Of a stretch of 64,000 bases of DNA, positions 23,614 through 44,902 are shown piece after piece. Position 1 is the stretch's first letter. Every line of letters begins with the position of its first letter. The position numbers and the translations under genes were made by a program. This DNA comes from Promethearchaeota archaeon (GTDB taxonomy: Archaea > Asgardarchaeota > Lokiarchaeia > Sigyniarchaeales > SOKP01), in the NCBI GenBank assembly GCA_019894975.1, contig JAGXNO010000008.1, positions 1-64,000 of the forward strand, read 5' to 3'. The notes beneath the pieces are model-generated. The model did not search any database, was not told the origin of the DNA, and saw only the letters and a program-made list of their open reading frames with translations.

Positions 23614-24706
23614 ATGGTTTATGACATTAAAAGTGATATTACTGAAATAATAAATCGCATTGAAAAAGAAAATATCTCATTAAAAGATAAGACAGTTTTA
23701 GTAACGGGGGGCGCTGGCTTCTTAGGTTCATGGGTCTGTGATGTCCTAGTTGAACAAGGGGCTTATTGTATATGTTTAGATAATTTGACGTCTGGTCAAC
23801 CAAAAAATGTTCAACATTTAATGGAGAAAGATAATTTTAGGTTTATTAATCACGATATCTCGTACCCTATATATTTTGGAATGAGTTACCATCCATTAGG
23901 TATTTGCATTGGTGATATTAAAAAAATTGATATTGTTATGCATATGGCAAGTAGAGCCTCACCATTTGAATTTCAGAAAGATCCTATAGCGATTCTTAGG
24001 AGCAATACGTTAGGAACATTAAATTCGCTAGGAATAGCAAAATTCCATAATTCGATATTTTTCTATACGAGCACTTCTGAGGTTTATGGAAACCCACCGA
24101 ATGAAGAGATACCATCTCCAGAGACTTACTTTGGGCACGTAATTCTTGTATAAGGATTCCTACAAGAGCGTATACCCAGTAGGTCCAAGGAGCTGTTATG
24201 ATGAGTCTAAGAGGGCGGGGGAAGCTTTCATTAAGGCATATGAACTACAACATCAAATGAGAACAAAGATTGTAAGAATTTTTAACACTTCTGGGCCAAG
24301 AATACGTCATGGACCTGAGTTTGGCAGAGTTGTTCCAAATTTTATACATCAAGCGGTAAACGATGAAGATATTACTATTTTTGGGGATGGATCACAAACA
24401 AGGTCTTTTATTTATGTGGTAGATGAGATCGAAGGAATCCTAAAAATGGTGTTTAATGATGAAGCAAATGGAGAGGTTATTAATTTAGGCAATGATAAAG
24501 AATATACCATATTAGAGTTAGCGAATATCATAAAAGATTTAGCAGGTTCTAATTCAAAAATAGTTTATAAACCACTACCTATTGATGACCCCGTACGTCG
24601 ATGCCCCGATATCACGAAAGCAAAAAAAATCTTAAATTGGGAACCTACAACTTCCTTGGAAGAAGGACTTAAAAAAACCATTGCATGGTTCAAAGATAAT
24701 GAATAA
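23614..24706 (+). CDS. UDP-glucuronate decarboxylase-like NAD-dependent epimerase/dehydratase; join(23614..24142,24174..24706), 353 aa after splicing
   Basis: VTGGAGFLGS, HMASRASP, TSTSEVYG; spliced junction GHVNPVGPRSCYDESKR; RIFNT, GDGSQTRSF, DDPVRRCPDI. Confidence 0.9.
24143..24173 (+). other. putative BHB/BHL-type mRNA intron (31 nt)
   Basis: TGGG-C-ACGT-AA^T-TCTTGTA-loop-TACAAGA-GCGT-AT^A-CCCA; removal restores the frame and the conserved Asn. Confidence 0.8.
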
Positions 24707-25217
24707 TACAACCGATAAGGATCAACATAGGAATTTTAAATCCAGTTTAAAAGAATTTGATACATTACTCAAGATCTGTTTAGTTATTGGAATTGTAGTT
24801 ATTTCGGGTTTTGTTATCTACCATGCTTTAAAACCAGAACCAGGTTTTGTTACGTTTGGAATTTTAAACGAGAACCAAGAAGCGGAAAATTATCCTACCG
24901 AGGCTGCTATGAGTGAGAATATTTCCTTTTATCTTACTGTTGAAAATTATTTAGAAAGAGATTTTGCATTTAATGTGAAAATCAAGAAAGGGGATAATAA
25001 TACCGTTCTAAGTTCTACAGGCTCAAATGGAACATTTGCATTTATGATTAATGGTTCCTTAAACCATAAGGAACTTTGGAAGTCTAGTAAATTAAATATT
25101 TCATTTTCTCAAATTGGTGCGAATCAAATAATTATCGCAGAATTATGGCAAGGTTTCGAAAGTAAACCTGAAGAATTCTATAACATACTGTGGTTGCGTT
25201 TAAATATTACTTCTTAA
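24699..25217 (+). CDS. DUF1616-family membrane-anchored protein
   Basis: One TM, then FVTFGILNE..AENYP, FYLTVEN, LWLRLNI; ATG at 24699 overlaps the end of the upstream gene. Confidence 0.7.
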   Translation: MNNTTDKDQHRNFKSSLKEFDTLLKICLVIGIVVISGFVIYHALKPEPGFVTFGILNENQEAENYPTEAAMSENISFYLTVENYLERDFAFNVKIKKGDNNTVLSSTGSNGTFAFMINGSLNHKELWKSSKLNISFSQIGANQIIIAELWQGFESKPEEFYNILWLRLNITS

Positions 25218-26590
25218 TTCAGGCCCCCTATTATTTGGACATTCTCTACTCTAACATAGGGTGCGTGAAGTGAACCATAGATTTTAAATTCTTTTGAAAT
25301 GGAACTTATATTCTTATATAAATCTAAAAGATTAATCCCTATCATCGTTTCATTTAAAGGCTCTTTAATTTCCCCATTAAGTATTAAATTTCCATGTAAT
25401 ATCAAGCCCGAGAAATCACCCGTTGAAATATTAGGATTATCTCCAGTGTAATCAAATAAAATTCCTTCTTTTACATCCTTTATCATTTCTGTTAAAGGTG
25501 TATCACCATTTCGCATAATTAGGTTTGTAGATCCTATGGAAGGTATAGAACTATAGGAACTTCTCGCAGCATTACCTGTGCTCTCTATACCTTCTTTACC
25601 CGCTGTATAGCTATTATGCAATAATCCTGTCTTTAGGAATTTTCCTTTTTCAATAATTTTCTTATTTTTGCAAGGCACACCTTCCCCATCAAATATTGCA
25701 GATCCAACAGCACCATCAATTAACCCATTATCTTCAATATTTAATAACTTTGAGCCAATTTGTTCATCCCTTTTATCTACAAGGAAATTTCGTTTATATT
25801 GGAAAGATTCCCCATTTATAGCCGAAGCAAGGGGTCTTAATATTAATTGTATGGCTCCTTTTGGTGATAAAATGAGAGGAACTTTCATATTACTTATTTT
25901 TTTTCTATGCAAATTTCTTTTAGCTTCTAATAGGGCAGTATTAACTACGTTTAATGCATTTAGAGCTTTTATAGAACGTTCAGATTGCCATTCGTAACCG
26001 AATGAGGTTTCCTTATTTGTTTTATCCTCTACAATGATGTGTGAAGAAAGCGAACAACTCGTCTCTTTTCCTGATACTTCTAACCCATTAGTATTAAAAA
26101 TATTTGTTTTGGAATAATTTGAAATAAAACTTCCCGATTGAGAGATTGCAAGCTCATCATTATCACATACTTCGATTAAAGTGTTGATATAATCCAGGGA
26201 ATCTTCTAATTGGAGAGCTTTCAATTCTTTATCGTATAAACCATTTACTAGTGGATAATTTTGAAAAGAACTGGGTAGATCATGAAAATCAGGGTCAGGA
26301 GTGCCAACATTCATCATTTTTAAAGCTGTTTTACAAAGATTATCCATAGTTTTTTTTTCTAATTTATTCGAAAATGCAAAACCGAGAGCACCTTGATTGT
26401 TAATAACTCGGATAGATACTCCATTATCCTCTCCAGTTTCACTATTTTTTACAGAATTTTCCTCAATTTCTATGCTGATATAAGTATTTTTTTCAAAAAA
26501 AAACTCAGCACATTTTAAATCATGAGAATTTTGCTCGATCAATTTCAAACCATAGTTTGCTAAAGAATATATATCTGAGTTGATTTCCAT
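25214..26590 (-). CDS. pmbA: TldE/PmbA family protein
   Basis: FDGEGVP, STGNAAR, NISTGDFSG; follows tldD. Confidence 0.85.
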   Translation of the reverse strand: MEINSDIYSLANYGLKLIEQNSHDLKCAEFFFEKNTYISIEIEENSVKNSETGEDNGVSIRVINNQGALGFAFSNKLEKKTMDNLCKTALKMMNVGTPDPDFHDLPSSFQNYPLVNGLYDKELKALQLEDSLDYINTLIEVCDNDELAISQSGSFISNYSKTNIFNTNGLEVSGKETSCSLSSHIIVEDKTNKETSFGYEWQSERSIKALNALNVVNTALLEAKRNLHRKKISNMKVPLILSPKGAIQLILRPLASAINGESFQYKRNFLVDKRDEQIGSKLLNIEDNGLIDGAVGSAIFDGEGVPCKNKKIIEKGKFLKTGLLHNSYTAGKEGIESTGNAARSSYSSIPSIGSTNLIMRNGDTPLTEMIKDVKEGILFDYTGDNPNISTGDFSGLILHGNLILNGEIKEPLNETMIGINLLDLYKNISSISKEFKIYGSLHAPYVRVENVQIIGGLN

Positions 26591-44658: not shown

Positions 44659-44771
44659 TACTTTAATATCCCCATTTTATTTTTTACTCTTTTCAATATT
44701 TCATATAAGTGTTGAATGAGTATTAAAGAATTCTTGGCAGTAATTTGATTATAAAATATAGAAAAAAATAA

Positions 44772-44875
44772 CGGGCTATGAGGGATGTGTTCAGAAAACG
44801 CTCAATGCGAGTCCCGTTGAACCCCCGACCTGCCGGTTAAGAGCCGGTTGCGCTACCTGCCTGCGCCAATAGCCC
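44772..44875 (-). tRNA. tRNA-Lys(CTT) with non-canonical 58/59 intron (44787-44816, 30 nt)
   Basis: GGGCTAT/ATAGCCC+G; loop CT-CTT-AA; BHB GTTC-AA^C-GGGA...TTCT-GAAC-AC^A-TCCC gives T-loop TTCAAAT. Confidence 0.9.
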
Positions 44876-44902
44876 ATTTTATATTAAAATCAATCATCAA
44901 AA

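What the first reader, a model, noticed from the sequence alone, without database searches (positions are those of the whole stretch)
24143..24173. Candidate BHB-type intron inside a protein-coding (UDP-glucuronate decarboxylase-like) gene
Seen: the gene appears as two overlapping ORFs because of a 31-nt insertion in ...GGG CAC GTA A[TTCTTGTATAAGGATTCCTACAAGAGCGTAT]AC CCA GTA GGT CCA AGG. The RNA folds with a 4-bp central helix (ACGU/GCGU), a 3-nt bulge AAU, a perfect 7-bp intron stem (UCUUGUA/UACAAGA), a 3-nt AUA on the other strand and an exon helix UGGG/CCCA with one extra C (relaxed BHB/BHL). Cutting after the second nucleotide of each bulge, the rule for archaeal splicing endonuclease EndA, gives GHVNPVGPRSCYDESKR, the family consensus. 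Shifting the deletion by one base gives Ile or Tyr instead of the conserved Asn, so fold and protein conservation independently pick the same junction. Unspliced, a TAA at 24151-24153 truncates the protein just before the catalytic YxxxK. Known: the established archaeal mRNA intron of this type is in crenarchaeal cbf5. Inference: this Asgard lineage splices a metabolic mRNA with its tRNA-splicing machinery, possibly as a regulatory switch, and other 'frameshifted pseudogenes' in such genomes may be spliced genes.
Basis: partly seen in the sequence, partly recalled or inferred. Interest (0 to 1): 0.95.

Follow-up and report, generated by a model that had tools for sequence, protein, structure and literature searches.

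The report
tRNA-type mini-intron in Asgard sugar-enzyme gene
A 31-base insert that breaks a sugar-nucleotide enzyme gene of a Loki-type Asgard archaeon has the shape cut by the tRNA-splicing enzyme. Related species keep it while the protein stays under strong selection. So it is very probably spliced out of the mRNA, which published work confirms for only one archaeal protein gene (cbf5).

Summary
A 31-nt insert (24143-24173) splits a single-copy UXS-like SDR gene between the first and second bases of a conserved Asn codon.

- **Boundaries.** 19 same-genus and 70 species-level intronless orthologues fix the boundaries to the nucleotide. They coincide with the cut sites of a near-canonical bulge-helix-bulge (BHB) fold.
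- **Not an artefact or repeat.** The insert is identical in three other metagenome assemblies that differ by SNPs. It is unique in the genome.
- **Conserved and selected.** 7 other species genomes and 15 metagenome contigs carry a homologous 30-31-nt insert at the same site. In all 8 species the joined ORF is intact, and dN/dS is 0.03-0.09 in both exons. The intron diverges far less than 4-fold sites (0.23 vs 0.60).
- **Rivals fail.** One lineage has a 30-nt version, which rules out frameshifting, hopping and a two-piece protein.
- **Machinery.** The host has two EndA paralogues and RtcB, and its only EF-1alpha gene carries a similar 30-nt insert.

Caveats:
- There is no RNA-level evidence.
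- The fourth pair of the central helix is not conserved.
- Covariation is not significant.
- The BHB motif alone is not enriched genome-wide.

The regulatory-switch idea has no support. This scan has already reported such mRNA mini-introns in other genes of this genome and in other Asgard genomes.

The parts
23614..24142 (+). Exon 1 of the UXS-like extended-SDR gene. It holds the Rossmann GxxGxxG motif and the TSTSEVYG motif, and ends with the first base of the Asn codon.
   Evidence: ORF list and Pfam profile positions 1-143. Orthologue alignment.
24143..24173 (+). 31-nt BHB-type mini-intron.
   Evidence: Absent from 19 + 70 orthologues, with flanks exactly contiguous. Homologous 30-31-nt inserts at the same site in L035, L036, L037, L043, L072, L080, L086 and in 15 metagenome loci. 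Unique in the genome.
24174..24706 (+). Exon 2. It starts with bases 2-3 of the Asn codon, then PVGPRSCYDESKR with the catalytic YxxxK, and runs to the stop codon.
   Evidence: Pfam profile positions 146-332. dN/dS in exon 2 is as low as in exon 1.
24132..24135 (+). 5' strand of the outer (exon-exon) helix h. It pairs with 24175-24178. The C at 24136 is an extra unpaired base.
   Evidence: MFE fold. GGG:CCC is invariant or compensated (G-C to A-U in L086).
24137..24140 (+). 5' (exon) strand of the central helix H (ACGU). It pairs with 24168-24171 (GCGU) in the intron.
   Evidence: Three inner pairs are conserved, with one compensatory C-G to U-A change in L080. The outer A:U pair is kept in only 6 of 15 sequences.
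24141..24143 (+). 5' three-nucleotide bulge (AAU). The predicted cut is 24142|24143.
   Evidence: The boundary is fixed by orthologues. The bulge reads AA(A/U) in all 15 sequences.
24144..24167 (+). Intron hairpin h': a 7-bp stem (24144-50 with 24161-67) and a 10-nt loop.
   Evidence: Five stem pairs are conserved in 13-15 of 15 sequences.
24151..24153 (+). In-frame TAA that ends translation of unspliced mRNA after 179 residues.
   Evidence: The same intron codon is TAA, TAG or TGA in all 15 homologous introns.
24168..24171 (+). 3' (intron) strand of the central helix H'.
24172..24174 (+). 3' three-nucleotide bulge (AUA). The predicted cut is 24173|24174.
24175..24178 (+). 3' strand of the outer helix h (CCCA).

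Best explanation
The 31 nt at 24143-24173 are an archaeal bulge-helix-bulge (BHB) intron inside the coding sequence of a UXS-like NDP-sugar enzyme gene.

Proposed mechanism:
- In the pre-mRNA, exon bases 24132-24140 pair with the 3' end of the intron and the start of exon 2. This forms helix, 3-nt bulge, short central helix, 3-nt bulge, helix.
- The host's two-paralogue splicing endonuclease (EndA) cuts after the second base of each bulge.
- RtcB joins the exons, which recreates the Asn codon AAC and a 353-residue enzyme. The intron is released, probably as a circle.
- Unspliced mRNA yields only a 179-residue fragment that lacks the catalytic Tyr/Lys.

Shown: the anatomy, the exact boundaries, conservation of the insert, selection on the joined ORF, and presence of the enzymes.

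Inferred: the cleavage and ligation themselves.

Among lineages, the intron appears to be gained or lost by short-patch homologous recombination.
For: 1. **Boundaries.** Boundaries defined independently by 19 + 70 intronless orthologues coincide to the base with the BHB cut sites. In the window and in L086 they cannot slide.
2. **Real DNA.** The insert is identical in three other assemblies that differ by 9-13 SNPs per 6.5 kb.
3. **Selection.** 7 more species and 15 metagenome contigs hold a homologous insert at the same site.
   - The joined ORF is intact (353-358 aa) in all 8 species.
   - dN/dS is 0.03-0.09 in both exons, the same as in intronless pairs, with dS 0.6 to above 2.
4. **Intron conservation.** Mean p-distance is 0.23 in the intron against 0.60 at 4-fold sites.
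5. **Length variant.** L086/L141 carry a 30-nt version with the same boundaries. There the exon-2 frame has no start codon before codon 34, which lies past YDESK.
6. **Stop codon.** An in-frame stop is kept at the same intron codon as TAA, TAG or TGA.
7. **Flanking codons.** The synonymous codons that build the exon half of the motif (GGG CAC GTA A|AC CC) are shared by intron bearers at three separate places on the gene tree. Only 1 of 68 intronless genes has that context.
8. **Compensatory changes.** Two double changes keep pairs intact.
9. **Machinery.** The genome has two EndA paralogues; the better-scoring one (202 aa) matches PDB entries 3p1z_B/3ajv_B best, the other (200 aa) matches 1a79_A best. 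It also has RtcB.
10. **tRNA introns.** The genome has tRNA introns of 28-31 nt at non-canonical sites.
11. **Second case.** The only EF-1alpha gene has a 30-nt BHB-like insert with two in-frame TAA inside DAPGH..DFVKNM.
Against: - There is no RNA-level evidence. No joined protein above 86% identity to the window's exon 1 (93% at best to any intron-bearer's joined product) was found among the full-length hits listed.
- The motif is relaxed. There is one extra unpaired C, and the outermost pair of the central helix is A:U in only 6 of 15 sequences (A.C, A.A or A.G in the rest).
- 4 of 15 MFE folds do not give the BHB.
- Covariation measures are not above the shuffles.
- BHB-like motifs of this quality are as common as a wrong-handed control across the genome, so the fold alone proves nothing.
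Confidence: 0.85

Rival explanations
1. Gene fission: the two halves are made as separate polypeptides that assemble into an active enzyme. The N-terminal half ends at the stop in the insert. The C-terminal half starts at the TTG inside the insert.
For: Both halves are under purifying selection. In the 31-nt versions a conserved TTG (24146) is in frame with exon 2 and lies just upstream of the exon-1 stop, like a coupled gene pair.
Against: - In the 30-nt version (L086 and the independent contig L141) the TTG is out of frame. The first possible start is codon 34, after the catalytic YDESK.
- This model gives no reason for the conserved BHB geometry, the fixed synonymous codons in the flanks, or the invariant A..A(C/T) that rebuilds Asn.
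- 70 + 19 orthologues are single polypeptides.
Confidence: 0.05
2. The insert is excised from the RNA, but not by EndA. Another nuclease or a self-cleaving activity does it, and the BHB likeness is incidental.
For: The selection data demand removal of the insert but do not name the enzyme. The central helix is only 3 conserved pairs and covariation is weak.
Against: At 31 nt the insert is too small for a group I or II intron or any known ribozyme class, and there is no Rfam match. The cut sites fall after base 2 of both 3-nt bulges, which is the EndA rule (PMC2738675). The insert has the same size class and bulge sequences as this genome's tRNA introns.
Confidence: 0.05
3. Translational recoding: the ribosome bypasses the insert by hopping (as in T4 gene 60) or shifts frame by +1 inside it.
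For: The window has GUA before the insert and GUA near its end (a CGTA repeat), and a hairpin right after the take-off codon.
Against: - The matched GUA landing codon is absent in L036, L037, L072, L080, L129 and L148.
- Hopping would give Tyr instead of the universally conserved Asn.
- The 30-nt variant needs no frameshift but still has an in-frame stop.
- A frameshift would insert about 10 residues into the active-site loop.
Confidence: 0.02
4. Dead gene or artefact: a pseudogene broken by a random hairpin insertion or a MITE, or an assembly error.
For: The gene is called as two ORFs. BHB-like motifs are common by chance in this AT-rich genome.
Against: - The insert is identical in 4 assemblies with SNP differences.
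- It is a single copy in the genome, so no MITE family.
- There is no other defect in 8 species, despite dS up to saturation and dN/dS 0.03-0.09.
- The intron itself is conserved.
Confidence: 0.01

Closest known systems
BHB intron in the cbf5 (pseudouridine synthase) pre-mRNA of Crenarchaeota (Desulfurococcales, Sulfolobales; Yokobori et al. 2009, PMC2738675, and the work cited there)
   Same: - A short BHB-type intron inside a protein-coding sequence.
- It splits a codon for a conserved active-site-region residue.
- The motif is 'unconventional/relaxed', with cuts between bases 2 and 3 of the bulges.
- The host has a two-subunit, broad-specificity EndA.
- Patchy gain and loss among related species.
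   Different: - A different gene: a metabolic NDP-sugar SDR enzyme rather than an RNA-modification enzyme.
- A different phylum: Promethearchaeota (Asgard).
- The introns are not homologous.
- Splicing has been shown by cDNA for cbf5 but not here.
- Here there is evidence that a roughly 50-nt exon patch moves with the intron.
Non-canonical BHB introns of archaeal tRNA genes, including the heavily interrupted tRNA genes of Asgard archaea (bioRxiv 10.64898/2026.10.13.758758)
   Same: - Same size class: 28-31 nt in this genome.
- Same bulge-helix-bulge layout, with similar bulge sequences (AA|N and AU|N).
- Same presumed enzymes. That preprint finds two EndA paralogues in 44 of 60 Asgard genomes, as found here.
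   Different: [quoted passage not shown] Removal must restore a reading frame, and the intron carries an in-frame stop. That preprint treats tRNA genes only.
BHB motif processed by EndA in a Haloferax volcanii mRNA 5' UTR
   Same: EndA acting on an mRNA rather than on a tRNA or rRNA.
   Different: That site is in an untranslated leader, not inside the coding sequence. It does not rebuild a codon.

Membership tests
Archaeal BHB (EndA-dependent) intron | Two 3-nt bulges on opposite strands, each 3' of a 4-bp central helix and flanked by helices (hBHBh'), or an accepted relaxed form. | tested here: met
   The window's MFE fold gives 3-nt bulge, 4 bp (one G-U), 3-nt bulge, a 7-bp inner stem and a 4-bp outer helix with one extra C. 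In relatives the form is relaxed: 3 conserved central pairs plus a variable fourth. 11 of 15 MFE folds keep the layout.
Archaeal BHB (EndA-dependent) intron | Cutting between bases 2 and 3 of each bulge yields the correct mature sequence. | tested here: met
   The cuts 24142|24143 and 24173|24174 give exactly the sequence of 89 intronless orthologues (A|AC = Asn). The boundaries cannot slide in the window.
Archaeal BHB (EndA-dependent) intron | The host encodes a splicing endonuclease able to cut non-canonical substrates, and an RtcB-type ligase. | tested here: met
   Two EndA-family genes (202 and 200 aa); the stronger Pfam match has PDB 3p1z_B/3ajv_B as its best hits, the other has 1a79_A. 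RtcB is present. The subunit arrangement and its specificity are inferred, not tested.
Archaeal BHB (EndA-dependent) intron | Base pairs of the motif are maintained by compensatory change. | tested here: inconclusive
   There are two double changes (C-G to U-A in L080; G-C to A-U in L086) and six G-U to A-U changes. The whole-structure measures are not above the shuffles, and one central pair is often unpaired.
Archaeal BHB (EndA-dependent) intron | The intron is actually excised and the exons ligated in RNA (spliced transcript, circular intron, EndA cleavage in vitro). | not testable with these tools
   No joined product close to an intron-bearing lineage was found in the protein database. 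No transcriptome was available.
UDP-glucuronate decarboxylase-like extended SDR (NDP-sugar epimerase/dehydratase superfamily) | N-terminal Rossmann GxxGxxG, a Ser/Thr and YxxxK catalytic residues, and a full-length match to the Epimerase / GDP_Man_Dehyd profiles. | tested here: met
   Pfam PF01370 and PF16363 cover both halves contiguously. GGAGFLGS and TSTSE lie in exon 1 and YDESK in exon 2. Sources name full-length orthologues 'UDP-glucuronic acid decarboxylase family protein'. No NCBIfam equivalog cut-off is reached by the halves, so the exact substrate is not established.
MITE / insertion element | Multiple copies in the genome, with terminal inverted repeats and a target-site duplication. 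| tested here: not met
   The insert is a single copy at up to 3 mismatches. There are no related copies by blastn-short or by a stem pattern search.
Programmed ribosomal bypass / frameshift site | Conserved matched take-off and landing codons, or a slippery site, with an insert length tied to one frame. | tested here: not met
   The landing GUA is absent in several homologues. Both 30-nt and 31-nt versions exist.

The most novel reading that the evidence does not exclude
This intron is one of a population of about 30-nt BHB mini-introns in protein-coding genes of Promethearchaeota (Asgard). EndA and RtcB splice them out of mRNAs. Short-patch recombination passes them between lineages or erases them. 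If so, routine mRNA splicing, with intron presence/absence polymorphism, exists in the closest archaeal relatives of eukaryotes and uses the tRNA-splicing machinery.
Probability: 0.7. Interest if true: 0.9.

Novelty: new member of a known kind. Interest (0 to 1): 0.78.

Why it matters
In the papers I could search, splicing of an archaeal coding sequence by the tRNA endonuclease is confirmed only for crenarchaeal cbf5 (PMC2738675). The recent Asgard intron census covers tRNA genes only (10.64898/2026.10.13.758758).

- **Wider scope.** A conserved, selected BHB intron in an ordinary metabolic gene, together with one in the only EF-1alpha gene of the same genome, suggests that mRNA splicing is part of normal gene expression in Lokiarchaeia-type Asgard archaea.
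- **Annotation.** Such genes are now called as two fragments or as pseudogenes. This distorts metabolic reconstructions of uncultured Asgard archaea.
- **Evolution.** It gives a testable system for how introns enter and leave protein genes in the lineage nearest to eukaryotes. Here there is a visible recombination patch around the intron.

Tried and rejected
- **Genome-wide BHB motif scan with a wrong-handed mirror control**. There was no enrichment: 136,823 vs 137,098 hits; ORF-fusing 574 vs 520; high-quality 80 vs 76.
  - The scan is too noisy to count CDS introns. It also missed the EF-1alpha intron, which lies too near the gene start for my 70-codon filter.
  - It therefore shows neither presence nor absence of further cases.
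- **Exact intron search in metagenome and species-genome collections.** Nothing was found. A degenerate pattern then found 15 true loci among 80, the rest being chance.
- **Search for a joined (spliced) product in the protein database.** None is closer than 86% to the window's exon 1 (93% at best to any bearer's joined product), and those hits are intronless orthologues.
- **Rfam.** No match.
- **Other copies of the intron in the genome.** None. A look-alike at C22:65593 lies inside an uninterrupted sugar-kinase ORF and is chance.
- **A 'second intron site' in L092.** It is a scaffold gap of N with duplicated flanks.
- **L109.** This is only a 125-residue N-terminal fragment copy.
- **Covariation statistics.** Not significant.
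- **Single origin of the intron on the gene tree.** Rejected by the AU test (p = 0.0014). The gene is mosaic, so the tree is not a clean history.

Full report
**1. What is in the window**

The plus strand carries an ORF at 23614-24153 (179 aa) and an overlapping ORF in another frame at 24146-24706.
- Both belong to the NAD-dependent epimerase/dehydratase (extended SDR) superfamily.
- The GDP_Man_Dehyd profile is matched at positions 1-143 by the first ORF and 146-332 by the second. The gene is therefore complete apart from the join.
- Deleting 24143-24173 (31 nt) gives GGG CAC GTA A|AC CCA, read as G-H-V-N-P-V-G-P-R-S-C-Y-D-E-S-K.
- Moving the deletion one base either way gives Tyr or Ile instead of Asn.
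- Full-length orthologues are named 'UDP-glucuronic acid decarboxylase family protein' by their sources. NCBIfam equivalog cut-offs are not reached by the halves, so I call the gene UXS-like.
- The genome has no close paralogue. The next SDR is at most 34% identical.

**2. The fold**

| Element | Coordinates |
|---|---|
| Outer helix | 24132-35 with 24175-78 |
| Extra unpaired C | 24136 |
| Central helix, 4 bp | 24137-40 with 24168-71 (A-U, C-G, G-C, U-G) |
| 5' bulge, 3 nt | 24141-43 |
| Inner stem, 7 bp | 24144-50 with 24161-67 |
| 3' bulge, 3 nt | 24172-74 |

The handedness is the one EndA uses: each bulge lies 3' of its strand of the central helix. Cuts after base 2 of each bulge give exactly 24143-24173. 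PMC2738675 states the same rule for cbf5.

**3. How much is chance**

I scanned the whole 3.9-Mb genome for this motif, with a mirror-image (wrong-handed) motif as control.
- The counts do not differ: 136,823 vs 137,098 for the loose motif, and 80 vs 76 at the quality seen here.
- An ORF-fusion filter does not separate them either: 574 vs 520.
- The fold alone is therefore weak evidence.
- What is not chance is the coincidence with independently defined boundaries. The probability of such a motif at one given position and length is about 3e-7, or about 2e-4 for the loosest form.

**4. The boundaries come from orthologues**

In 40 related genomes the gene is present in 38 of 40.
- All 19 same-genus loci I read are contiguous exactly at A|A(T/C) of the Asn codon.
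- In the window the first intron base (T) differs from the first exon-2 base (A). The last intron base (T) differs from the last exon-1 base (A). The boundaries therefore cannot slide.

**5. Not an artefact, not a repeat**

- The truncated 179-aa product is encoded on contigs from three other metagenome assemblies (ERZ27271168, ERZ27271183, ERZ27271186).
- These differ from the window by 9-13 SNPs per 6.5 kb and carry the identical insert.
- The two SNPs inside the gene are at third codon positions.
- The insert is unique in the genome at up to 3 mismatches. It has no relatives by blastn-short or by a stem pattern search.
- There is no Rfam match.

**6. The intron is conserved in other species**

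A protein search limited to short lengths returned many 176-186-aa N-terminal fragments at 72-91% identity, on long contigs. I then fetched loci from species-representative genomes, all Promethearchaeota MAGs.
- 70 orthologues have no insert.
- 7 have a 30-31-nt insert at the same site: L035, L036 (Loki_b32), L037, L043, L072, L080 and L086.
- A degenerate pattern found 15 more such loci in metagenomes.
- In all 8 species the joined ORF is intact at 353-358 aa.
- Pairwise dN/dS among intron bearers is 0.03-0.09, in exon 1 and in exon 2 alike. Intronless pairs give 0.04-0.06. dS runs from 0.6 to saturation.
- A gene dead since the insertion would not look like this.
- The intron itself is conserved. 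Its mean p-distance is 0.23 against 0.60 at 4-fold degenerate sites of the same gene pairs.

**7. Discriminating between mechanisms**

L086, and the independent contig L141, carry a 30-nt version with the same boundaries.
- Inserts of 30 and 31 nt cannot both be handled by one frameshift.
- The 30-nt insert still has an in-frame TAA.
- After that stop, the exon-2 frame has no ATG, GTG or TTG until codon 34, beyond the catalytic YDESK. Exon 2 cannot be a separate functional polypeptide there, yet it remains under selection.
- The GUA...GUA repeat that could serve ribosome hopping in the window is absent in six homologues. Hopping would also give Tyr instead of the conserved Asn.
- All 15 introns keep an in-frame stop at the same codon, but as TAA, TAG or TGA. 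This suggests selection for stopping translation of unspliced RNA.
- Only excision at the RNA level fits all versions.

**8. Structure across homologues**

On the 15-sequence alignment A1, I counted the following.
- The outer GGG:CCC helix, three central pairs and five inner-stem pairs are kept.
- The 5' bulge is AA(A/U) throughout.
- Two pairs show double compensatory changes. C-G becomes U-A in L080, where the exon side is a synonymous CAC-to-CAT change. G-C becomes A-U in L086, where both sides are synonymous codon positions.
- The U-G pair becomes U-A in six sequences.

Against this:
- The outermost central pair is A:U in only 6 of 15 sequences.
- The whole-structure covariation measures are not above the shuffles.
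- 4 of 15 MFE folds differ.

The conserved form is therefore a relaxed BHB: a 3-bp core, a 3-nt 5' bulge and a 3-4-nt 3' loop. PMC2738675 also describes most cbf5 introns as unconventional.

**9. Exon codons serve the motif, or travel with the intron**

- Intron bearers share GGG CAC GTA A|AC CCA GTA GGT.
- Their intronless sisters read GGR CAT GTN AAT CCT GTT GGA. Only 1 of 68 intronless genes has the bearer context.
- On the protein tree the bearers fall in four places. Holding them together costs 122 log-likelihood units (AU p = 0.0014).
- The gene is mosaic, though. L043 (intron) and L059 (no intron) differ at 22 of 564 sites over codons 153-360. Around the junction (codons 176-192) they differ at 10 of 51 sites, and all 10 are synonymous. 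Fisher p is 1e-4, for a window chosen after seeing the data.
- In that patch L043 is closest to other bearers and L059 to intronless genes.
- The simplest reading is gain or loss of the intron by short-patch homologous recombination. Selection on synonymous sites for pairing may add to it.

**10. The machinery and the genomic habit**

- The genome has two EndA-family genes of 202 and 200 aa. For the first the best solved relatives are 3p1z_B/3ajv_B; for the second, 1a79_A.
- From memory, 3p1z and 3ajv are the Aeropyrum pernix heterotetramer. I did not check this here.
- RtcB is present.
- ARAGORN finds only 16 tRNAs. Removing single BHB candidates in silico reveals 6 more, with 28-31-nt introns in the T-arm and elsewhere. 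The mirror control reveals 2.
- A 2026 preprint reports heavy tRNA intron loads and two EndA paralogues in most Asgard genomes, but treats tRNA genes only.
- Following a lead from this scan's notes, I checked the only EF-1alpha gene (C107:20216-21535, minus strand). It is read through two TAA codons. A 30-nt insert sits between DAPGH-AD and FVKNM and folds as helix, 3-nt bulge, short helix, 3-nt bulge, helix. An essential single-copy gene with such an insert argues that this organism splices mRNAs.

**11. What is missing**

I found no RNA evidence.
- Among the 120 best full-length relatives listed, none is more than 86% identical to the window's exon 1.
- None is more than 93% identical to any bearer's joined product.

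**12. Comparison and novelty**

The closest known case is the cbf5 pre-mRNA intron of Crenarchaeota.
- PMC2738675 states that splicing had been confirmed for no other archaeal protein gene, and that introns in others were only predicted.
- My four literature searches found no report of BHB introns in Asgard coding sequences.
- This case works like cbf5 but is a different, non-homologous intron in a different gene and phylum. I file it as a new member of a known kind.
- This scan has already reported the same kind of intron in at least eight other genes of this genome and in other Asgard genomes. Of these I tested only EF-1alpha myself.

**Verdict**

This is very probably (about 0.85) a genuine EndA/RtcB-spliced mRNA intron. 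It still needs a spliced transcript or an in vitro cleavage experiment.

Noticed in passing
G000:C107:20216-21535 (minus strand; outside the window; locus L214): The only EF-1alpha gene over the TIGR00483 cut-off is read through two TAA codons. A 30-nt insert between DAPGH-AD and FVKNM folds as a BHB-like helix, 3-nt bulge, helix, 3-nt bulge, helix.
   Followed up: partly
window about 44771-44876 (minus strand), intron about 44787-44816: A tRNA-Lys(CTT) becomes detectable by ARAGORN only after a 30-nt BHB intron in the T-arm region is removed. The coordinates were converted from the reverse strand of contig C164 (92,897 nt).
   Followed up: partly
G000 whole genome: ARAGORN finds only 16 tRNA genes in a 95%-complete 3.9-Mb genome, including a tRNA-SeC. 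Most tRNA genes are probably hidden by one or more non-canonical introns of 28-31 nt.
   Followed up: partly
L043 vs L059, codons 153-360 of the UXS-like gene: The two species' genes are about 96% identical in the 3' two-thirds but only 73-84% identical in the 5' third. They differ by a cluster of 10 synonymous changes around the intron site. The gene is a recombination mosaic among Promethearchaeota lineages.
   Followed up: partly
L109 (NJBH01000025.1, Loki_b32), 1501-1869: A second contig of the Loki_b32 MAG holds only the first 125 residues of this gene (83% identity), with nothing following. It is a fragment copy, separate from the intron-bearing full gene on L036.
   Followed up: no
L092 2157-2259: An apparent break in this orthologue is a run of N with the flanking 54 nt duplicated. 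It is a scaffolding artefact, not an intron.
   Followed up: yes
window 24681-25217 and 25214-26590: Directly downstream lie a DUF1616-family membrane protein gene, overlapping the end of the UXS-like gene, and a convergent PmbA/TldD pair. Gene order is the same in the three other assemblies.
   Followed up: no
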